Shown here: positions 238 through 20,720 of the stretch, piece by piece
How positions within the stretch are numbered: position 1 is the stretch's first letter
Layout of the letters: each line of letters starts with the position of its first letter
IMG/VR virus record: IMGVR_UViG_3300044728_000163
Location: 1 to 64,000 of that record
Reading direction: 5' to 3' (one strand)
Length of the DNA: 64,000 nt
Source of the DNA: a virus
Taxonomy: Duplodnaviria > Caudoviricetes
Notes under the pieces: generated by a model
Told to the model about the DNA's origin: nothing
The model's database searches: none
What the model saw: the letters and a program-made list of their open reading frames with translations, nothing else
Position numbers and translations under genes: made by a program

Positions 238-318
238 GAGGCCGGCACCAGGTTGTGAGGCCTCGACCCGCCACACCAGAGGCCAGCACCAGGTTGTGAG
301 GCCTCGACCCGCCACACC
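238..318. repeat. 40-bp direct repeat, two copies (238-277, 279-318), one mismatch
   Basis: GAGGCC(G/A)GCACCAGGTTGTGAGGCCTCGACCCGCCACACC read twice in tandem. Confidence 0.95.
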
Positions 319-2189: not shown

Positions 2190-2215
2190 CACCCTCGACC
2201 CTCGACCCGCGCGAC

Positions 2216-2347
2216 CCTCGACCCGCCTTGTGCGGGTCGAGGCGCGTACTGATCTAAACTCGACCCGCCTAGTGCGGGTCGAGGCGCGTACCGCACTCGA
2301 CAAGCTGGCCTCGACCCTCCCCGCTTTACGCGGGTCGAGGCGCGTAC
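2216..2347. repeat. Three tandem hairpin units (C)CTCGACCCGC-N5-GCGGGTCGAGG, each followed by CGCGTAC
   Basis: Perfect 11-bp and 10-bp inverted repeats at 2216-2242 and 2259-2283; interrupted third copy at 2309-2340. Confidence 0.9.
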
Positions 2348-2356
2348 TGTGACTCA

Positions 2357-2856
2357 TGGCAAGGCCTGGCCGCTGGCCTCCCCGCTGGCCTCGACCCTAC
2401 GCCAGGCCTTGCCATGGTTCACACCCGACACCCGACACCCGACTCGCCTGGCATGGCCTCGCATGGCCGCGCCTCGCATGGCCGCGCCTGGTGCCTCCCC
2501 TCCCCTCCCCGCTGGCCGCTGGCCTCGACCCGCTGGCATGATGTCGACCCGCTGGCCTCCCCTCGACCCGCTGGCCTCGACCCTCCCCGCTGGCCTCCCC
2601 GCTGGCCGCTGGCCTCGACAAGCTGGCCTCGACCCGACTCCGGCTTAAGCTGGCCTCGACAAGCTGGCCTCGACCCGCTGGCCGCTGGCCTCCCCTCGAC
2701 CCTCCCCGCTGGCCGCTGGCCTCGACCCGCTGGCCGCTGGTGTCGACCCTCGACCCGCTGGCCTGGCCTCGACCCGCTGGCCTGGCCTGGCCTCGCATGG
2801 CCTCCCCTCCCCTCGACCCTCGACCCTCCCCGCTGGCCTCCCCGCTGGCCTCGACT
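2357..2856. repeat. Large modular repeat cluster (CCTCGACCCG, CCGCTGG, CCTCCCC, CTCGCATGG)
   Basis: Same module set as 300-450; ORFs across it are low-complexity artefacts. Confidence 0.9.
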
Positions 2857-2898
2857 CCGCGGCCAGGTAGCAGAATCGATTCCTTTTCGCGCATGCCA

Positions 2899-3150: not shown

Positions 3151-3266
3151 ATTTACCATCTCAATCCTGAGATTCGACCCCAATTTTCGGGCTACTTTTC
3201 TGAGACGACCCCCCGTTTTTCGGCCTTCCAGATAAAAGGCCGCTCCCCAGGATATCCCCCTCCCCT

Positions 3267-3334
3267 CGACCCCCCGTTCTTTGCACCTGATTCAAAAAAT
3301 CGACCCCCCTGCTTTGCACCTGATTCAAAAAAAT
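3267..3334. repeat. Tandem 34-bp repeat containing TTTGCACCTGA
   Basis: CGACCCCCC..CTTTGCACCTGATTCAAAAAA(A)T twice; related pair at 8171-8244. Confidence 0.9.
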
Positions 3335-13978: not shown

Positions 13979-14268
13979 CGCCCGAGCCACGCCGAACGAA
14001 GCTGATCGAAGGCGCTCAAATGAACCCAAAGATTGAACAACGGCCCCGGCTTGCCACCATACGCGCGCAACGCATCGACCATGGCCGTCCTCCTGTTTTC
14101 CTCTGGCCCAAGATCACCCGACTGAATGACGAACGGCGGCATCACCGTCCCAGCCCTTTCGTGATGCGCCAGCAAATCATGTAACAGTCCATGCGAACTG
14201 GCCATGACCATGTCCATCGCCCGCGTCAGCGCCGGAAGCCGGACGCTCATATCGCGATCATCGCTCAT
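13975..14268 (-). CDS. Hypothetical protein
   Basis: In operon with short overlaps. Confidence 0.65.
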   Translation of the reverse strand: MSDDRDMSVRLPALTRAMDMVMASSHGLLHDLLAHHERAGTVMPPFVIQSGDLGPEENRRTAMVDALRAYGGKPGPLFNLWVHLSAFDQLRSAWLGR

Positions 14269-14470
14269 CTTTCCCCGCTTCCATCCTGCCCAGCAAATCG
14301 AATACTTCCAGCCTCATTTTCGCACCGCAACGAGGGATCAAAAACCACCGGCCCGAGCGCAGCCCCGCCAGATCGTTGATCCCATCGTTGACCAGGAGCC
14401 GCGCCGCGCGCGTGGACAAGCCGAGACTTCTCCAGTGATACACCAGCCTCTCGCGCTCCTCGCCGGTCAT
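14258..14470 (-). CDS. RNA polymerase alpha-CTD-like (HhH) protein
   Basis: LGLSTRAARLLVNDGINDL..L...FLIPRCGAKMRLEV matches the alpha-CTD pattern LS.R..N.L...I..L..L....L....N.G.KS..EI. Confidence 0.6.
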   Translation of the reverse strand: MTGEERERLVYHWRSLGLSTRAARLLVNDGINDLAGLRSGRWFLIPRCGAKMRLEVFDLLGRMEAGKDER

Positions 14471-14802
14471 GTTTCCGGTTCCTCTTTCACCGCCCTCCAC
14501 AACACGCGATTCGAACCGTCCTGAAAGCGTCGCAGCTTTGTATCGACGATCAAACCCATCTCGGTCAGTTCCGATCGCCGGGTGCGATGAGTGCTTTTGT
14601 GATCATTGAAATACGACTGAAGGTCCAGGTCGGTGATCGCTTGTGGCCAGATCGAACGGAAATAATCCAGCACTTCAATCTGGATATCCGTCATCCGATG
14701 TTGGATGCGCTCCGCGGCGATATGCGATGTGTCGGGATCGCCAGGCCGCGCGCGGGTATGCGGTTCGAACAGACTTATCTGGTTTGAGTTTTTCCGTGCC
14801 AT
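14467..14802 (-). CDS. Winged-HTH protein with N-terminal QISLF beta-clamp motif
   Basis: AR..DP.TSH.AA motif, then EVLDYF..ITDLDL..RTRRSEL.EMGLI wHTH. Confidence 0.7.
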   Translation of the reverse strand: MARKNSNQISLFEPHTRARPGDPDTSHIAAERIQHRMTDIQIEVLDYFRSIWPQAITDLDLQSYFNDHKSTHRTRRSELTEMGLIVDTKLRRFQDGSNRVLWRAVKEEPET

Positions 14803-14821
14803 GACGGTTACCAGTCGCCGG

Positions 14822-15337
14822 TCATGGCGTCGTTTCCTGTTCCTTCCCGATCCCCAGACGGCTCGCCATCATGGTCAGCGTCGTGGCGACCGGCGTCGGC
14901 TTATCTGGCGAAACGATCTGCGCCACATGCCGGTCGCGCGCCAGGTAGCCGATCAACTGCAGCGCGCTCGCCTCCGCGTAGGCCCGCGCCTGGCCGTTCG
15001 CGGTCATGTCGTTGGCCACCTCCACCGCCCGTACAATCGACCCCGCCGCGCGCCGGGTGCTACGGCGGATGCGGCGGCGCAGATTGACCCCCACCAGCGC
15101 GGCCCGCTCCGCTTCCAACCTCTGATAGCCAACCGTCCGCACGTTCACGAACAGGCTTCCGCCTTCCTTGTTCGCCAGGTCGATCGCTCGCAACACCAGA
15201 TACCGACGCGCCTGGACATCGGCCCCGATCGCGGCGGAAAGCTGCGAATACGTCACGATCTCGCCAACGCTGGTCGCCATCAGCCGGTCGCGTAGATGCT
15301 GGATATCCGCGGCCAGAATACTCTGTGGTTTGAACAT
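14822..15337 (-). CDS. Winged-HTH-like accessory protein downstream of the array
   Basis: AGGAG RBS right after the last array unit; VGEIVTYSQLSAAIG..RAI..VRTVGYQRL. Confidence 0.7.
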   Translation of the reverse strand: MFKPQSILAADIQHLRDRLMATSVGEIVTYSQLSAAIGADVQARRYLVLRAIDLANKEGGSLFVNVRTVGYQRLEAERAALVGVNLRRRIRRSTRRAAGSIVRAVEVANDMTANGQARAYAEASALQLIGYLARDRHVAQIVSPDKPTPVATTLTMMASRLGIGKEQETTP

Positions 15338-15360
15338 GGATTATCTCCTGGGTTGAAGAC

Positions 15361-16911
15361 GATGCGATGCGATGAGCAGTGCAGCGCAGAGATGCTGGGC
15401 GGCGCGACGCGGTGCGAGGCGCTGCGGCGCGGCGTTGGGCCTCTCGACCCGGCATCCAGTCCGCAAACTGGATGCCGCGTGGAGAGGCAATGCGATGCGA
15501 TGCGGGGCGCGGTGGCGCGATGTGGAGCGGTGCGTCGCGGCGCGGAGCGCTGTGAAGCGCGGAGCGGCGTCGCGGGGTTGAGTCTCTCGACCCGGCATCC
15601 AGCAAAACGCTGGATGCCATGTCGAAAGAACGATGCGAGGCGACGCGGGAAAGTGCGCTGTGGCGAGACGCGGTGCGGCGCGCGGCGCAGTGTCGCGCAG
15701 GGTGTCGGGCCTCTCGACCCGGTATCCGGCCTGATCCGGATGCCATGTCGAGAGCGATGCGATGCGGGGCGCAGCGTGGCGTAGCCGAGCGCAATGACGC
15801 GGAGCGAAGCGGGGTGAAGCCATGAGAAGCGGTGAGCAGCGATGTGTGGCGTGGCGCGGTGTTGCGACGAGGAGCGCCGTTCGGTTTGAGTCTCTCGACC
15901 CGGCATCCGGCCCACGAGTCTGGATGCCGCGTGGAGAGCGATGCGAGGCGATGCGAGGCGCGGAGTGGTGTTGCGTAGTAGTGCGTAGCGCGGTGCTGCG
16001 CGGCGTGGTGCTGCGCCGAGGCGCGCGGCGTGGGACCACCTGGGCCTCTCGACCCGGTATCCAGCCGATCTGGATGCCGCGTCGAGAGCGTCGCGTCGCG
16101 ACGCGTTGAGTTGCAAGGCGGTGCGTTGCGCCGCGAGGCGGGGCGATGGGCTGCGGAGCGGCGCGTGGCCTGGTGGTGCGGCGTGTGGCGTGGCGCTGTG
16201 CAGAGCGGCGAAGCGGCGCGACGAAGGGGCCTCTCGACCCGCCCTTGGGACCGATCCCAAAGCCATGTCGAGAGACGGTGAGGCGATGCGAGGCGATGCG
16301 GCGCGGGGCAGAGCGCAGAGTGGCGAGGAGTTGCGTGAAGCGGCGGCGCGGCGCGCTGCGTTGAGTGAAGGCCTCTCGACCCGGCATCCAACATGACCTG
16401 GATGCCGCGTCGAAAGACGCGTTGCGCGGCGAGGAGTAGCGGCTCGTCGTGAGGCGTAGCGTGGAGCGGCGTTGCGTCGAGTCGAGGCGTGAGGCGCTGC
16501 GGCGCGCGGTGTCGCGACGAGGAGCGTCGTTGGGCCTCTCGACCCGGCATCCAGCCGCGAAGGCCGGATGCCGCGTCGAAAGACGCGTTGCGTTGAATAG
16601 CGACGAGTCGCGGGGCGAGGCCGAGCGATGAGTTGAGATGCCTTGAGGCGGTTGGCCTTGAGTCTCTCGACCCGGCATCCAGACCAAATCTGGATACCGC
16701 GTGGAGAGAACGATGCGATGCGATGCGATGAGATGCGCGGAGGTGCGTTGCGCCGCGATGCGCCGCGTCGCGCGGCGAGGTGTAGCGTCGATGGACCTCG
16801 CGATCCGACCTTCAGACCAACCGGTCTGAAAGCCGCATGGCGAGGCGAGGCGTCGAAAAGCGATGAAGCGCGAGGCGTCGCGGCGCGGTGAGAAGTGTTG
16901 CGGCGCGGTGG
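15361..16911 (-). repeat. Hairpin-punctuated pentamer array, putative guide-RNA (ncRNA) array
   Basis: Hairpins CTCTCGAC-CC-GGCATCCAG-loop-CTGGATGCC-GC/AT-GTCGAGAG at 15441-15486, 15584-15628, 15711-15754, 15892-15938, 16046-16088, 16231-16274, 16373-16416, 16536-16582, 16664-16708 and a divergent one at 16796-16845; intervening tracts parse as G-NN-G-(C/A/T) pentamers on + (GC-NN-C on the sense strand). Confidence 0.95.
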
Positions 16912-16916
16912 AAACA

Positions 16917-17510
16917 TTAAGCTGCGATCTGGCGATTATCTTGCCATACCAGCTTATCGATTTGGAAACGACCGTTCGTTCCACCCTTCTCGGGCCGGAA
17001 CCGACCGATGCCAACGAACAGGCCACTCAGGTTGACCATCTCGCGGAAAATCGTTTCGGTAATAATAGGATCTAGGATAATCACATCGAAGGTTGATTGC
17101 CATTCCGGCATGATCGGAAACCTACGCGTCACCCGCTTGCCAGAGCCGCGCACCCCATCGGGGTTGGCGCTGATGGTCACGCTCGTCACCGTCGCTGGAT
17201 CGATGTTGAGCGCGGGGTCTTCCAGAACCGCGATACCCGCCGTAAACTTAGCTGTCCATGTCGCCTTGCCCTGGCCGGGGATTTGTCGCTTGGAATATTT
17301 GGCACCAGAAGCGAAGCACTGTTGCAGACCATGCGCCGGAATCACCACGGTCGGTTTCCCATCGCGAATGGTGTGATTCATCTTGTGTTTCCAAGTCCTT
17401 AAGTCCCAATCGTCGGGCCTTTCTCCTTCTAGTTTAGGCTCATCATGCTGACGGCTCTGCGACAAGGGCGTGATGCCCTTGATCGTGACGGTGGCGATGC
17501 TGGCTTGCAT
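16917..17510 (-). CDS. Cas7/RAMP-superfamily-like RNA-binding protein, putative effector of the array
   Basis: N-terminal strand TVTIKGITPL, VVIPAHGLQQCF (cf. Csm3/Cas7 IPGSSLKG), and Gly-rich loop GLFVGIGRFRPEKGGTNGRF before the last strand; array begins 6 nt after the stop. Confidence 0.75.
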   Translation of the reverse strand: MQASIATVTIKGITPLSQSRQHDEPKLEGERPDDWDLRTWKHKMNHTIRDGKPTVVIPAHGLQQCFASGAKYSKRQIPGQGKATWTAKFTAGIAVLEDPALNIDPATVTSVTISANPDGVRGSGKRVTRRFPIMPEWQSTFDVIILDPIITETIFREMVNLSGLFVGIGRFRPEKGGTNGRFQIDKLVWQDNRQIAA

Positions 17511-17530
17511 GGTAAAAGTCCTTTTTTAAC

Positions 17531-17590
17531 GTGGCGTCGAGACGCGATGAGAGGCGTTGAGTCGAGATGCTATGCGACGCGCGGCGACGC
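17531..17590 (-). promoter_or_regulatory. Twelve-unit pentamer tract in the 5' leader of the RAMP-like gene
   Basis: gtggc gtcga gacgc gatga gaggc gttga gtcga gatgc tatgc gacgc gcggc gacgc; same G-NN-G-C code, ends 20 nt before the ATG. Confidence 0.8.
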
Positions 17591-17785
17591 GCGATCGTCT
17601 CCAGCCTCGCGACTGGCGTCCAGCCGCAAGACTCCATCCAGAATGTCGCAGATGATCCAACTGACTGACCGGCGCTCCATCTCGGCGCGCCGATTGAGCA
17701 CGCCGTACAGGTCGTCGGTCAGCCGAACGTGAACTGACTTACCCTTGGCCCCGCCCGAACCAGGCGCGACAGGTCTTCCAGCCAT
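17570..17785 (-). CDS. Ribbon-helix-helix (Arc/CopG-like) repressor
   Basis: KSVHVRLTDDLYGVLNRRAEMERRSVSWIICDIL; GGAG RBS. Confidence 0.8.
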   Translation of the reverse strand: MAGRPVAPGSGGAKGKSVHVRLTDDLYGVLNRRAEMERRSVSWIICDILDGVLRLDASREAGDDRASPRVA

Positions 17786-17850
17786 CACTCACTCCAACCC
17801 TGAACAGACCAAACGGACTATCATGGGAACATGAGGATAGCAATGGGTAA

Positions 17851-18183
17851 TTATTTCAATATTCCGTTGTCGATGCCCCACCCACGCATGATGTCCAGGC
17901 CACGCTGGCGCTTCTCTTTCTCGGTGTGGCCATCGTTGTAGAAATTCACCCCCGTGAGGATGTCGGCCACCCACTCCTTGCCGTCCGCGCGCATCACCGG
18001 ACCCACTTCGCGATCACCTCCCTGGCGCTCCCAGATCGGCTCGTAGAACCGGTTGAACAGCACCTCGCGACCGGTCTTCGTCGTCCACATGCCGTAAGCG
18101 ATGTCATTCTGACGTTCGAAGTCACGCGCGGTGGCGAAGTGACGAGGCTTCCCGCCGTGGGTGAACCGTTCCTTGAAACTCAT
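17851..18183 (-). CDS. Hypothetical protein
   Basis: GGAGG RBS; aromatic-rich globular sequence. Confidence 0.75.
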   Translation of the reverse strand: MSFKERFTHGGKPRHFATARDFERQNDIAYGMWTTKTGREVLFNRFYEPIWERQGGDREVGPVMRADGKEWVADILTGVNFYNDGHTEKEKRQRGLDIMRGWGIDNGILK

Positions 18184-18214
18184 GTCCCTACCTCCCTAAC
18201 GTGCCTCTACCATC

Positions 18215-18425
18215 CGCCCCTACCTATTGTGAAGAAAATGGCTGATTTCCGCCATTTGCCTCCACGTCACCACCTCCCCACCGGTTTTCCAAAACCCTCT
18301 CCTGTGCGTGCGTATACACACATGCGTGCAGGTGCCTATAGGTAGGGGCGTGGGGGCATGTTGGTTTATTACCTAGAGAAAGCTGGTTGGGGAAGTGCCA
18401 CCACGGTGGGGGCATAGTGGGGGCG
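18215..18425. other. Candidate replication origin
   Basis: 13-bp inverted repeat CGCCCCTACCTAT (18215-18227) / ATAGGTAGGGGCG (18338-18350); three GTGGGGGC repeats; non-coding, just downstream of the VapE helicase. Confidence 0.35.
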
Positions 18426-18447
18426 AAACACCCAAAGGTAGAGGCAA

Positions 18448-19887
18448 TCAGGTGCCAGGAGCCTCGTCAGGCGGTTGCCAGGTCGTGGTCTTCCCGCGCG
18501 ACAGTTCATTTTTGACTGTTGGCAATCTAACGTGGCGAGACGCGATCCATCCCATCGCCTTCAGAACCTCGGCCACCCTCATCTCATGCACCTTAGACAT
18601 TTTATCTTTTGTCATGCCGATCGCGTGTTCCAAGATCCTGGCGACGTAGATTGGTTCGACGGCGAGGAACGCGTCGGTCGGTTCCGCCTGATCGGCGATG
18701 ATCCGCGCCTTCGCTTCCGAGCGCTCCCGTTCGGTTTTGGCGACCCATCGTTGGACGGCCACGGTCCAGATGTCCTCGCGCATGCGCGTGTTGGTCAGCC
18801 GCGCCGCCTCGGCCTGCAGTTCGTCGGTGTCCAGCCATAGCCGCCGGTCGTCCCCTTCCGCCTCGCGCGCCGCCGCTTCCGCCCATAATTGTTCTCTGTT
18901 AGCAATGATCCATTGAACATCCGCCTTCTGACAGAAGGCCGGCCAGAACCGTGTATTCCCAGTTGTATCCTTCAAATAATCTTGTTGATTTGTCGTTCCA
19001 AAGAACACTCCCTCGCGTGGCACGTCGCGGAAATGGCGCTCATACGGTGGCCGGAAATGATCGGTGTTCCTTGACAAAAACGCCTTGAGTGTTTCCACAT
19101 CGGAACGGATGACCTGCTCGATCTCGCTGAACTCGACCACCCATTTGCCGAAAAGTCCTTGCGCCGCCTCCTTGTTTCGCAAATCCGCGAACACCGTGTC
19201 GGTGAAGAACTCCTTGCCGTACAGCACCTCGATCACCGTGCTTTTGCCGAGCCTTTGCTCGCCTTCCAATATCAACATCGAATCGAATTTGACCCCTGGA
19301 CGGCGCAGCCGCCGCACCGAAGCGACCAGCATCCGCGCGCCGATCGCGGCGTAGTAATCCTCGCGTGCCTTCCAGCGAGCGTATTCCGCCTCGTCACCAT
19401 TGCGGTCGAACTCGTTGCGGACATCGAAGGCCTCGACCATCCAGGTGTCGATCCGATAGACACCATCCCATCGTAACGAATTAATCCAGTCCAGTATTGG
19501 ATGATATGAATTCTGCCGCGCCACGACCTCCATGGCGTCGGCCACGTTGGCGCGTGGCCAGTTCTTGTTCCAGGCGCACTGCAGGTACCCGGTGACCAGG
19601 GTGATGTCGGTGGTGTTCCACGGCCTGGGGTATGGCCCCCGCTCGTCCACCTCCGAGCCGTCGAACCGGGGTGGTGGCCGCAGCAACACCGCCTGACAAC
19701 GGTAACTGTCGAAGGCGAACATCGGACCCAGCGTGCCCGTGAACGGATCATCGTTAGCCAGGATCATCATCGCGTTATGTAAAGTAACAAAGACATCACC
19801 GTCTTTGGGCCGCGCCAGGCGGAACCGCCAGCCTGGGTCCGGTGATTCGAAAGCGTCTGGCGCGTCGGGCGGATCATTTGGCATCAT
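18448..19887 (-). CDS. vapE: VapE / virulence-associated E family P-loop helicase
   Basis: YHPILDWINSLRWDG..RID, LILEGEQRLGKST, WVVEFSE, FFGTTNQQDYLKDTTGNTRFWP. Confidence 0.9.
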   Translation of the reverse strand: MMPNDPPDAPDAFESPDPGWRFRLARPKDGDVFVTLHNAMMILANDDPFTGTLGPMFAFDSYRCQAVLLRPPPRFDGSEVDERGPYPRPWNTTDITLVTGYLQCAWNKNWPRANVADAMEVVARQNSYHPILDWINSLRWDGVYRIDTWMVEAFDVRNEFDRNGDEAEYARWKAREDYYAAIGARMLVASVRRLRRPGVKFDSMLILEGEQRLGKSTVIEVLYGKEFFTDTVFADLRNKEAAQGLFGKWVVEFSEIEQVIRSDVETLKAFLSRNTDHFRPPYERHFRDVPREGVFFGTTNQQDYLKDTTGNTRFWPAFCQKADVQWIIANREQLWAEAAAREAEGDDRRLWLDTDELQAEAARLTNTRMREDIWTVAVQRWVAKTERERSEAKARIIADQAEPTDAFLAVEPIYVARILEHAIGMTKDKMSKVHEMRVAEVLKAMGWIASRHVRLPTVKNELSRGKTTTWQPPDEAPGT

Positions 19888-20720
19888 CTCTTCCCCAGTG
19901 GAGTGCGTCGGCCAGCCTTGATCGCGGAATGGATCGTCGCCGCGGCTTCCATCCCGTCCAGGCCCGCGGCGCGAGCGGCGGCGTAGAGGGTATCCACCGC
20001 CCGGTCCTCATCCAGCAACCCGGCCCCGATCAACTTACCGATCGTCCACGCGCGCCGGTTCAGGACGATGTTGCGGCCCCCCTCGCGCGCGTCGCTGATC
20101 GCGAACGCCGCCCGGTTCAGCGCCTCGTGGGCGGCGTTGCCAGCCCGCTCCCCATCGGAGAAGCGCTCCGCGACCGGCGGCGGCGGCGGGGTCCGCAGCG
20201 CCGTCAGGAGCCACCCCGGCGCGTCCGGCGGGCTGACCTCCCATGGTGCCACGATCCACCGGTAAGCCCGCCCCGTGGTGGTGTGGATGCTGGGCGGGAT
20301 CGTTTGCGTCTGGGCACCCCTCTTGGGGTCGATGCCCGCCCACGCGGCTCCCAGCCGGTCGGACGACCCGACCAGGTTCAGGCCGATGTTGGCGCGATAA
20401 AATAACAACACGCCGCCGCCACCGGATCTGGCCCGCGGCCCGACCGGCAAGGGTCCATTCTCGGCGACCAGCCGCGCCATCGAGGCGATCCCGTCATGCG
20501 CGTGCGTCTCGGTGGAATCCACATCGAGGCCCCACACGCCAGACCGGCCAAACACCACCCGCCAGTTGCAGCCGGGATGCTCCCTGGCCCACAGCGCCAG
20601 GGTATTGAGGTCGGAGGTCGCCTCGCCCTGTGACCCCTTCCAGAGGCCCGCCCTGGACGTGCGCGAACAGGGATATAAAGCCCATCCAAGCAACGCCAGG
20701 CGTTCCAGGTCCCGATGCAT
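19884..20720 (-). CDS. Bifunctional DNA primase/polymerase (Prim-Pol) N-terminal-domain protein
   Basis: WALYPC, CNW, GVWGLDVD, SGGGG, GID, PPSIH..TG..YRW, PDAPGWL; helical tail G.RN..L. Confidence 0.85.
   Translation of the reverse strand: MHRDLERLALLGWALYPCSRTSRAGLWKGSQGEATSDLNTLALWAREHPGCNWRVVFGRSGVWGLDVDSTETHAHDGIASMARLVAENGPLPVGPRARSGGGGVLLFYRANIGLNLVGSSDRLGAAWAGIDPKRGAQTQTIPPSIHTTTGRAYRWIVAPWEVSPPDAPGWLLTALRTPPPPPVAERFSDGERAGNAAHEALNRAAFAISDAREGGRNIVLNRRAWTIGKLIGAGLLDEDRAVDTLYAAARAAGLDGMEAAATIHSAIKAGRRTPLGKR

What the first reader, a model, noticed from the sequence alone, without database searches (positions are those of the whole stretch)
17511..17595. Pentamer tract in the effector gene's own leader: built-in autoregulation
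Seen: 12 units of the same G-NN-G-C code lie at 17531-17590, ending 20 nt upstream of the RAMP-like ATG and overlapping the RHH stop codon, with no full delimiter hairpin. Inference: excess guide-free effector could coat its own mRNA leader and block translation, balancing protein to guide supply. Alternatively this is an extra guide. It independently links the pentamer code to this protein.
Basis: partly seen in the sequence, partly recalled or inferred. Interest (0 to 1): 0.7.

Follow-up and report, generated by a model that had tools for sequence, protein, structure and literature searches.

The report
Upstream guide tract of phage VIPR
The five-base-repeat tract in front of the Cas7-like gene is real and conserved, and it is the upstream guide-RNA tract of a VIPR system, a phage RNA-guided DNA silencer described in 2026 preprints; that it also throttles the protein's own translation is possible but untested.

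Summary
Observation confirmed. On the minus strand, 17593-17534 holds 12 in-register NN-C(G/T)C pentamers. They overlap the RHH stop codon, end 10 nt before the Shine-Dalgarno site of the 197-aa gene, and have no tail hairpin. In 64 kb, such runs occur only here and in the array at 15364-16909.

The 197-aa protein models as a Cas7-type RAMP. The locus (protein, pentamer tracts with hairpin tails, conserved 171-aa partner) is a VIPR system (bioRxiv 10.64898/2026.04.26.720920), with a CGC/NN repeat instead of GGY/NN. This scan has already reported VIPR loci in at least 30 other genomes.

The leader tract is conserved: 53 of 61 loci (60 homologous loci plus this window) have a tract of 8 or more units upstream of the gene. 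In the 38 distinct leaders that end within 45 nt of the ATG, the median distance is 21 nt.

It behaves like a guide:
- Its NN dinucleotides are replaced between vipr genes that are 99% identical.
- Its length and NN composition match the array tracts.
- The partner gene has the same tract-to-SD junction.
- In phage SUSP1 the upstream vrRNA is a working guide.

No natural target was found for it. Autoregulation is neither shown nor excluded, and the papers read do not discuss it.

The leader and array always share the locus-specific triplet. G-loop residue 170 switches R to Q wherever CGC becomes CAC.

Verdict: a new member of a known kind, with a tail-less guide tract embedded in the 5' UTR.

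The parts
17534..17593 (-). Leader pentamer tract: 12 in-register NN-C(G/T)C units. It is an upstream vrRNA-type tract in the 5' UTR of the vipr gene. The first 4-5 units overlap the last codons and the stop codon of the RHH gene.
17534..17543 (-). Last two units, GTCTC GACGC. They equal the left arm (tail start) of the array hairpin. No right arm follows, so the tract is tail-less.
17519..17523 (-). Shine-Dalgarno AAGGA of the vipr gene, 10 nt after the last pentamer and 8 nt before the ATG.
   Evidence: read from the sequence
16917..17510 (-). vipr gene: 197-aa minimal RAMP/Cas7-like protein with G-loop motif GIG-R170-F171-R172-P...GG.NGRF.
15364..16909 (-). vrRNA array: 11 pentamer tracts (13-27 units, 201 units in the 11 tracts as listed, 184 of them C-x-C). 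The first 10 are each followed by a roughly 59-nt hairpin tail.
14822..15337 (-). 171-aa vap-like accessory gene (N-terminal winged-helix-like fold, weak support). The last tract ends 26 nt before its start codon.
17570..17788 (-). RHH (Arc/CopG-type) gene whose 3' end runs into the tract. It is not a conserved neighbour of the system.

Best explanation
The tract is the upstream guide-type RNA tract (vrRNA) of a VIPR system that uses a CGC/NN pentamer repeat.

Proposed mechanism:
1. It is transcribed on the minus strand as part of the vipr mRNA leader. Here that probably starts upstream of the RHH gene and runs on through vipr, the 11-tract array and the vap-like gene.
2. Vipr protomers polymerise along it, one per pentamer. 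They clamp each fixed C-G-C triplet through the RRM face, thumb and G-loop, and expose the two variable bases.
3. By the published rule, those variable bases pair with double-stranded DNA while skipping every third base.

Unlike the array tracts and the published SUSP1 vrRNA1, this tract keeps only the first 10 nt of the tail, has no hairpin, and runs straight into the ribosome-binding site.

My reading is that it is primarily one more guide, matured from the mRNA leader. Because the filament would end about 10 nt from the SD, loading probably also lowers vipr translation.

Shown here: the tract, its conservation, its shared locus-specific code, its guide-like turnover, and the RAMP fold.
Taken from the papers for a related type: one protomer per repeat, RNP formation, the skip rule.
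Inferred: binding to this particular tract, its maturation, and any effect on translation.
For: - Protein fold. The AF2 model has pLDDT 85.5. Its best Foldseek and VIA-align matches are all Cas7-family: Cmr4 6s6b_I Z 11.8, Csm3 9g9a_D Z 11.6, type VII Cas7 8yhd_A Z 11.0.
- Link to canonical VIPR. A weak sequence match (E 1e-4) hits the RAMP gene of Pseudomonas phage LESphi2, which is preceded by canonical GGC/NN tracts with tails.
- Published VIPR definition. Vipr plus vap plus pentamer vrRNAs with tails; in SUSP1, one vrRNA lies upstream and three downstream. Non-canonical triplets such as CAC/NN and GAC/NN are also reported.
- Conservation. 53 of 61 loci (60 homologous loci plus this window) have a tract of at least 8 units upstream. 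43 end within 45 nt of the ATG, and almost none lie on the other strand. In L019 and L020 the tract begins right after a TTGACA-17-TATAAG-type promoter, so it is the whole 5' UTR.
- Shared code. The middle base is the same upstream and downstream in each locus: CGC, CAC or CTC.
- Guide-like evolution. L001 and L002 have vipr CDS 99.0% identical, but leader NN identity is 0.29 while fixed positions are 0.83 identical. L002 and L010 have CDS 91.7% identical, but NN identity is 0.86.
- Similarity to array tracts. Leaders and other tracts have median 13 versus 14 units, and NN composition correlates at r 0.89.
- The skip-1 rule works in CGC-type relatives. Two 16-unit guides match a sister phage at 28/32 and 27/32, against 0.59-0.66 for skip 0 or 2. 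In both, NN falls on codon positions 1-2 of open frames.
- The leader RNA is unstructured (z -0.34).
Against: - No natural target was found for this leader. Searches covered the 72-kb contig, 70 related loci, IMG/VR (exact 10 units), 401 alphaproteobacterial genomes (up to 3 mismatches in 24), and the metagenome collection, which gave 3 chance-level hits whose next units do not match.
- The tract lacks the tail that every array tract here and every characterised vrRNA has. Whether a tail-less tract matures into a stable RNP is unknown.
- It is more degenerate than the array: 4 of 11 middle bases are T, against 27 of 184.
- Its first four units are a 10-nt tandem duplication inside the RHH reading frame.
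- No expression data exist for this locus.
Confidence: 0.6

Rival explanations
1. Pure autoregulatory operator. Free Vipr, in excess of guide RNA, coats the leader and blocks 30S binding at the SD 10 nt downstream. This balances protein against guide supply, and the NN bases carry no targeting information. It would work like T4 gp32 or ribosomal-protein feedback.
For: - The tract carries the protein's own recognition code and lies on its own mRNA.
- The junction geometry is conserved: the tract ends a median 21 nt before the ATG, 10-90% range 4-29 nt.
- There is no tail hairpin between the tract and the SD.
- The leader is unstructured, as a coatable site should be.
- The terminal ...AACGC-AACG motif next to the SD is kept even in L053, which has lost the variable part.
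Against: - An operator read only through CGC would let NN drift neutrally. Instead, NN is replaced wholesale between 99%-identical genes and shared between more diverged ones.
- The same junction precedes the vap-like gene, so it is not specific to the effector.
- The SD has no preferred register with the lattice: phases 10/5/5/8/8.
- 8 of 61 loci lack a tract of at least 8 units upstream.
- Canonical loci such as LESphi2 put about 100 nt and a tail between the last tract and the start codon.
- None of the VIPR papers read mentions autoregulation.
Confidence: 0.2
2. Loading or nucleation site acting in cis. The leader, and the matching tract before vap, recruit newly made Vipr onto the polycistronic transcript. 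This protects it from RNases or seeds filament growth into the array. The tract would have no targeting role of its own.
For: - Tracts flank the gene tightly on both sides in nearly all loci. The downstream tract starts 5-20 nt after the stop codon.
- No terminator-like or sigma-70-like site was found between 14700 and 18500, which is compatible with one long transcript.
Against: - There is no direct evidence.
- This reading does not explain the NN turnover.
- In the papers read, the SUSP1 vrRNAs are detected as ~100-nt transcripts and each native guide silences its own target; no requirement for an upstream tract is mentioned.
Confidence: 0.1
3. Decaying remnant. The tract is a former array unit cut off from its tail by gene rearrangement or by insertion of the RHH gene, and it is now functionless.
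For: - It is more degenerate than the array tracts.
- It contains an internal 10-nt duplication.
- The RHH reading frame runs into it.
- It keeps only the left arm of the tail.
Against: - A tail-less tract in exactly this position is the rule across the family, including remote clades with GAC/NN, CAC/NN and GGC/NN codes (L061, L062, L067).
- All 12 units are still in phase.
Confidence: 0.07

Closest known systems
VIPR systems, in particular the upstream vrRNA1 of Escherichia phage SUSP1 (type II; bioRxiv 10.64898/2026.04.26.720920, 10.64898/2026.04.26.720927, 10.64898/2026.10.15.759431)
   Same: - A small stand-alone RAMP (Vipr) gene in a phage.
- A DNA-binding-type accessory gene.
- Guide RNAs made of tandem pentamers with three fixed and two hypervariable bases, on the gene strand.
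- One tract upstream of vipr and an array downstream.
- The 1-nt-skip, wobble-phased target rule, seen here in CGC-type relatives.
   Different: - The fixed triplet is C-G-C (with some CTC and CAC units), not GGY.
- Array tails are a two-stem hairpin, not a pseudoknot.
- The upstream tract here has no tail and abuts the SD of vipr. The published vrRNA1 is a separate ~100-nt RNA with a tail.
- The G-loop triad is R-F-R instead of D177-W178-R179.
- The array is much larger: 11 tracts of up to 27 units.
Non-canonical VIPR arrays (CAC/NN, GAC/NN, WGT/NN, TGH/NN; bioRxiv 10.64898/2026.10.21.760802) and the YNNNG, NNNGG and NNNNG repeats noted in the first VIPR paper
   Same: A pentamer period with a fixed trinucleotide other than GGY, next to a Vipr-like fold. 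Relatives of this protein use CAC/NN (L025, L061 and others), GAC/NN (L062) and GGC/NN (L067).
   Different: CGC/NN is not named in the text I could read, although C-NN-C-G fits 'YNNNG'. That paper describes about 10 repeats per element, whereas here tracts reach 27 units. I could not see the figures or supplements, so I cannot assign a VIPR type.
Autogenous translational repressors that bind a copy of their normal ligand in their own mRNA leader: T4 gp32, ribosomal proteins such as S8 and L1, B. subtilis TRAP on (G/U)AG-NN repeats (from my own knowledge, not tested here)
   Same: A multimerising RNA-binding protein with a repeat-type site for it just upstream of an SD. TRAP also reads triplets spaced by two free bases.
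   Different: No evidence of repression here. The tract does not overlap the SD. Its free bases turn over like guide sequence. The same arrangement precedes a second gene.
Class 1 CRISPR-Cas Cas7 backbones (Csm3, Cmr4, type VII Cas7)
   Same: The fold of the protein: RRM core and glycine-rich loop.
   Different: There is no CRISPR repeat-spacer array, and no other cas gene lies among the conserved neighbours (only the 171-aa partner is conserved). The RNA period is 5 nt with sequence-specific triplets, not 6 nt with sequence-independent binding.

Membership tests
VIPR system | Vipr protein: minimal single-RRM RAMP fold with a glycine-rich loop and thumb | tested here: met
   The AF2 model has pLDDT 85.5. 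Top structural matches are all Cas7-family (Z 11-11.8; Foldseek E ~1e-6). The G-loop GxGxFRPxxGGxxGRF is nearly invariant in 150 representatives. The thumb was not examined in detail; a lower-confidence stretch at residues 111-130 (pLDDT ~70), which overlaps the region I aligned as the thumb (116-133), fits one.
VIPR system | Sequence relationship to published Vipr proteins (X1U2U4 / SUSP1 / P. fulva clade) | tested here: inconclusive
As a proxy, tblastn gave E 1e-4 (25% identity over 73%) to the RAMP gene of Pseudomonas phage LESphi2, which is preceded by canonical GGC/NN tracts with tails and has the D-Y-R G-loop triad.
VIPR system | vrRNA: tandem pentanucleotide repeats with a fixed trinucleotide alternating with a hypervariable dinucleotide, about 9-16 units, on the gene strand | tested here: met
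   The leader has 12 units and the array tracts have 13-27. The fixed part is C-G-C rather than GGY; the papers allow a 'related consensus' and other triplets. NN hypervariability is shown.
VIPR system | Conserved structured 3' tail after the repeat tract | tested here: not met
   This holds for the leader tract itself: the covariance model of the array tails finds nothing there, and only 23 nt separate the tract from the ATG. It is met for the first 10 of the 11 array tracts, which have tails with compensatory changes and score higher on the minus strand. The last tract runs into the vap-like gene's SD and has no tail.
VIPR system | Accessory vap gene in the operon, predicted to interact with DNA | tested here: met
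   The 171-aa gene is present next to vipr in 52 of 70 loci. The model has pLDDT 85 with an H-E-H-H-E-E N-terminal domain. Winged-helix matches are only weak (Foldseek E 0.05-0.3).
VIPR system | Viral or proviral context | tested here: met
   The window lies in a 72,464-bp virus record. 51 homologous loci are in IMG/VR. Neighbours are PrimPol, a VapE-like helicase and a C5 methylase.
VIPR system | Targets read by NN with a 1-nt skip | tested here: inconclusive
   This holds in CGC-type relatives L064 and L066, which match L065 at 28/32 and 27/32, wobble-phased. No target was found for any of this window's 12 tracts.
VIPR system | Vipr-vrRNA ribonucleoprotein forms and silences transcription | not testable with these tools
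   Needs pull-down, small-RNA sequencing and reporter assays.
Autogenous translational repression through a leader operator | A site with the protein's own recognition code in its own mRNA leader, conserved among homologues | tested here: met
Autogenous translational repression through a leader operator | The operator overlaps or occludes the ribosome-binding site | tested here: inconclusive
   In the window the tract ends 10 nt before the SD, at -24 from the ATG. In the family it ends 4-29 nt before the ATG. In the L001/L002/L010 group the pentamer phase runs through the SD. Overall the SD shows no preferred register.
Autogenous translational repression through a leader operator | The protein represses translation of its own mRNA | not testable with these tools
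   Needs reporter fusions, toeprinting or EMSA.
CRISPR-Cas (class 1) | A CRISPR repeat-spacer array, with further cas genes | tested here: not met
   There is no Rfam CRISPR-repeat match or other RNA family match. The only conserved neighbour is the 171-aa gene. The 'spacers' are pentamer-phased tracts.

The most novel reading that the evidence does not exclude
In this large CGC/NN VIPR clade, the tail-less tracts fused to the ribosome-binding sites of both vipr and the vap-like gene would be dual-purpose. They would be guide precursors and also translational operators. Vipr that finds no free guide RNA would coat them and shut down synthesis of itself and its partner. That would be a ribosomal-protein-style feedback that sets protein-to-guide stoichiometry, and maturation of a leader guide would consume the mRNA that encodes the protein.
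Probability: 0.3. Interest if true: 0.55.

Novelty: new member of a known kind. Interest (0 to 1): 0.4.

Why it matters
The system class is no longer new. VIPR was described in 2026 preprints, and this scan has met it in at least 30 other genomes.

What this locus adds:
1. A very large clade, mostly from metagenomes (984 protein clusters at 90% identity), that uses CGC/NN instead of GGY/NN.
2. A conserved design in which guide-type tracts lack a tail and form the 5' UTRs of both protein genes. I did not find this in the papers read. It raises a concrete, testable question about how guide maturation and translation are coupled.
3. A one-residue specificity switch in the G-loop (R170 with CGC, Q170 with CAC, in at least three placements on the tree). 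If confirmed, this gives a handle for re-engineering which repeat a Vipr protein accepts.

Tried and rejected
- Rfam on 14000-19000 gave no relevant family. Pfam found nothing for the 197-aa and 171-aa proteins. PHROGs gave only phrog_4652, of unknown function.
- Coding reading of the array. The three 496-561-aa minus-strand ORFs across 15060-17026 are artefacts of a stop-free, C-rich 5-nt repeat. A 5-nt period cannot be a reading frame, and the hairpins covary.
- Long-range pairing idea. I looked for pairing of the leader's left arm with a GTCGCAGAG-like stretch inside the vipr coding region. The fold is no better than shuffles (z -0.34) and the centroid does not contain it. Dropped.
- SD in lattice register with the tract: not supported.
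- RHH as part of the system: rejected. No homologue lies next to vipr in 70 loci.
- Target searches for the leader under the skip-1 rule gave nothing above chance: own contig and loci, IMG/VR exact, 401 genomes with up to 3 mismatches, and the metagenome collection. The 3 metagenome hits are antisense to a transposase-like ORF and to the start of iscU, and their flanking units do not match. The leader shared by L002 and L010 also has no exact IMG/VR hit. These searches have low sensitivity, so the negatives weigh little.
- The genome search cannot draw relatives for a virus record.
- Supplements and figures of the VIPR papers are not held, so no VIPR type could be assigned.

Full report
**Observation**

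All genes in this part of the window run on the minus strand. Read 5' to 3' on that strand, they are:
- PrimPol (19884-20720)
- a VapE-like helicase (18448-19887)
- a 110-aa ORF
- an RHH_1 gene (17570-17788)
- a 197-aa ORF (16917-17510)
- a 1.55-kb non-coding stretch
- a 171-aa ORF (14822-15337)
- further downstream, a C5 methylase

On the minus strand, 17593-17534 reads as 12 consecutive in-phase pentamers of the form NN-C(G/T)C. The RHH stop codon lies inside the tract. The last unit ends 23 nt before the ATG and 10 nt before the AAGGA Shine-Dalgarno site.

A phase-aware scan of both strands of the window finds such runs (at least 9 of 12) only in the array and at this leader. The + strand never exceeds 7 of 12.

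**The array**

The non-coding stretch holds 11 tracts of 13-27 pentamers. The first 10 are each followed by a roughly 59-nt two-stem hairpin. The hairpins show compensatory changes.

A covariance model built from them recovers exactly these 10 copies. It scores 60-77 bits on the minus strand against 19-42 bits on the plus strand. It finds nothing at the leader even at E <= 10.

The leader's last two units, GTCTC GACGC, copy the left arm of the hairpin. So the leader is a tract plus the first 10 nt of a tail, and then the ribosome-binding site.

**The protein**

The 197-aa protein has no Pfam match. It has 984 homologous 90%-identity clusters, the top 120 of them at least 70% identical and all unnamed. 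A profile search finds 1,883 clusters at 50% identity.

An AlphaFold model (pLDDT 85.5) matches only Cas7-family RAMPs at the top: Cmr4, Csm3 and type VII Cas7, with Z 11-11.8 and Foldseek E about 1e-6.

**What it is**

A literature search led to bioRxiv 10.64898/2026.04.26.720920 and two companion preprints. They describe VIPR systems:
- a roughly 20-kDa ancestral RAMP (Vipr) and an accessory vap gene;
- vrRNAs made of 9-16 YNNGG pentamers followed by a structured tail;
- one Vipr protomer per repeat, which clamps the fixed triplet and exposes NN;
- NN pairs with dsDNA while skipping every third base, silencing rival phages and satellites.

[quoted passage not shown] Other fixed triplets (CAC/NN, GAC/NN and others) and the YNNNG, NNNGG and NNNNG repeats are reported.

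The window's locus fits this kind, with CGC/NN as the repeat.

One direct tie to canonical systems comes from tblastn. It links the protein (E 1e-4) to the RAMP gene of Pseudomonas phage LESphi2, which is preceded by three GGC/NN tracts with tails.

This scan has already reported VIPR loci in at least 30 other genomes. None of those notes concerns autoregulation.

**Is the leader tract conserved?**

I fetched 60 homologous loci (51 IMG/VR, 9 genomes) and 10 from remoter clades. Counting the 60 homologous loci plus this window:
- 53 of 61 have a tract of at least 8 units upstream of the gene.
- In 43 it ends within 45 nt of the ATG. Among the 38 distinct leaders the median distance is 21 nt (10-90% range 4-29 nt).
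- A downstream tract starts 5-20 nt after the stop codon.
- Tracts are almost never inside the gene or on the other strand.

In L019 and L020 the tract begins just after a TTGACA-17-TATAAG-type promoter, so it is the entire 5' UTR. Remote clades show the same layout with GAC/NN (L062), CAC/NN (L061) and GGC/NN (L067).

The 171-aa gene is the only conserved neighbour (52 of 70 loci). RHH, PrimPol and VapE are not conserved next to vipr. Its model has a winged-helix-like N-terminal domain, with weak support.

The vap-like gene is also preceded by a tail-less tract, which ends a median 21 nt before its start (35 of 38 within 45 nt). So the junction is a design feature of the whole module, not of the effector's mRNA alone.

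**Link between code and protein**

The middle base of the fixed triplet is locus-specific. It is the same upstream and downstream of the gene: CGC in most loci, CAC in 7, CTC in 2.

G-loop residue 170 is R in 36 of 37 CGC loci (the exception is a gap) and Q in 7 of 7 CAC loci. The remote CAC locus L061 also has Q, while its CGC sisters have R. On a FastTree the CAC/Q state sits in at least three placements.

By motif alignment, the triad R170-F171-R172 corresponds to D177-W178-R179 of SUSP1 Vipr, which contacts the GGY bases in the cryo-EM structure.

The branch supports are unchecked, and the exact contact is inferred.

**Guide or operator?**

Five results favour a guide:
- L001 and L002 have vipr genes 99.0% identical (third codon positions 98%). 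Their leaders share only 29% of NN bases, which is chance level, while 83% of fixed positions agree. L002 and L010 are 91.7% identical but share 86% of NN. That is cassette-like turnover, not neutral drift of an operator.
- Leaders and array tracts have the same length (median 13 versus 14 units) and the same NN composition (r 0.89).
- The vap-like gene has the same junction.
- The SD has no preferred register relative to the pentamer lattice.
- The skip-1 rule holds in CGC-type relatives. Two 16-unit guides of L064 and L066 match sister phage L065 at 28/32 and 27/32, with NN on codon positions 1-2 of open frames. Skip 0 or 2 gives 0.59-0.66.

Three results weigh against a guide, or leave room for regulation:
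- No target was found for this leader. The searches were insensitive.
- It has no tail.
- It is more degenerate than the array.

Three results favour some regulatory coupling:
- The tract always stops just short of the SD.
- The leader is unstructured.
- In the L001/L002/L010 group the pentamer phase continues across the SD.

The VIPR papers I could read do not mention autoregulation, leaders or UTR effects.

**Verdict**

The tract is real and non-random. It is the upstream vrRNA-type tract of a VIPR system, and I expect Vipr to bind it. Most likely it is an additional guide matured from the mRNA leader. Its position makes a feedback effect on vipr translation plausible, but that is unproven.

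The kind is already published.

Noticed in passing
window 16917-17510 (residue 170); loci L025, L027, L034, L037, L040, L043, L048, L061: G-loop residue 170 is R where the repeat is CGC and Q where it is CAC (9 of 9 CAC loci, in at least 3 placements on the tree). Among 150 superfamily representatives this position varies (R, Q, S, A, T, V...) while its neighbours are invariant. It aligns with D177 of SUSP1 Vipr. It is a candidate specificity-determining residue.
   Followed up: partly
L064:2222-2301 and L066:4109-4188, matching L065:3384-3431 and L065:3808-3855: Two CGC/NN guides of sister phages match L065 at 28/32 and 27/32 under the 1-nt-skip rule only. NN falls on codon positions 1-2 of open frames, one of them with a helicase-like motif. 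This extends the published rule to the CGC-type clade.
   Followed up: partly
window 15338-15363 and 14822-15337; 38 distinct loci: The 171-aa vap-like gene is also preceded by a tail-less pentamer tract that ends a median 21 nt before its start codon, the same geometry as the vipr leader.
   Followed up: yes
window 15060-17026, minus strand: Three overlapping ORFs of 496-561 aa in all three frames cover the array. They are artefacts of a stop-free, C-rich 5-nt repeat, not genes.
   Followed up: yes
window 2190-2870, + strand: A roughly 680-bp mosaic of the short words CCGCTGG, CCTCGAC and CCTCC (TRF periods 7, 12, 19, 38, 52), plus three copies of a hairpin CTCGACCCGC-loop-GCGGGTCGAG followed by GCGCGTAC. 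The hairpin shares the GGGTCGAG motif with the array tails. The tail model gives only a marginal hit there (12.9 bits). Unexplained.
   Followed up: no
L053:3930-4000: This Massilia locus (protein 75% identical) has lost the variable part of the leader but keeps the terminal AACGCAACG motif next to the SD. It also has a mostly CTC/NN array downstream.
   Followed up: no
window 17574-17593: The first four leader units are an exact 10-nt tandem duplication (GCGACGCGCG x2 on the + strand). It lies inside the last codons of the RHH gene, so the RHH C-terminus is encoded by tract sequence.
   Followed up: no
window 238-318 and 3266-3332: Two further tandem repeats: 41 nt x2 at 97% identity, and 33 nt x2 ending in an A-run. 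Not examined.
   Followed up: no
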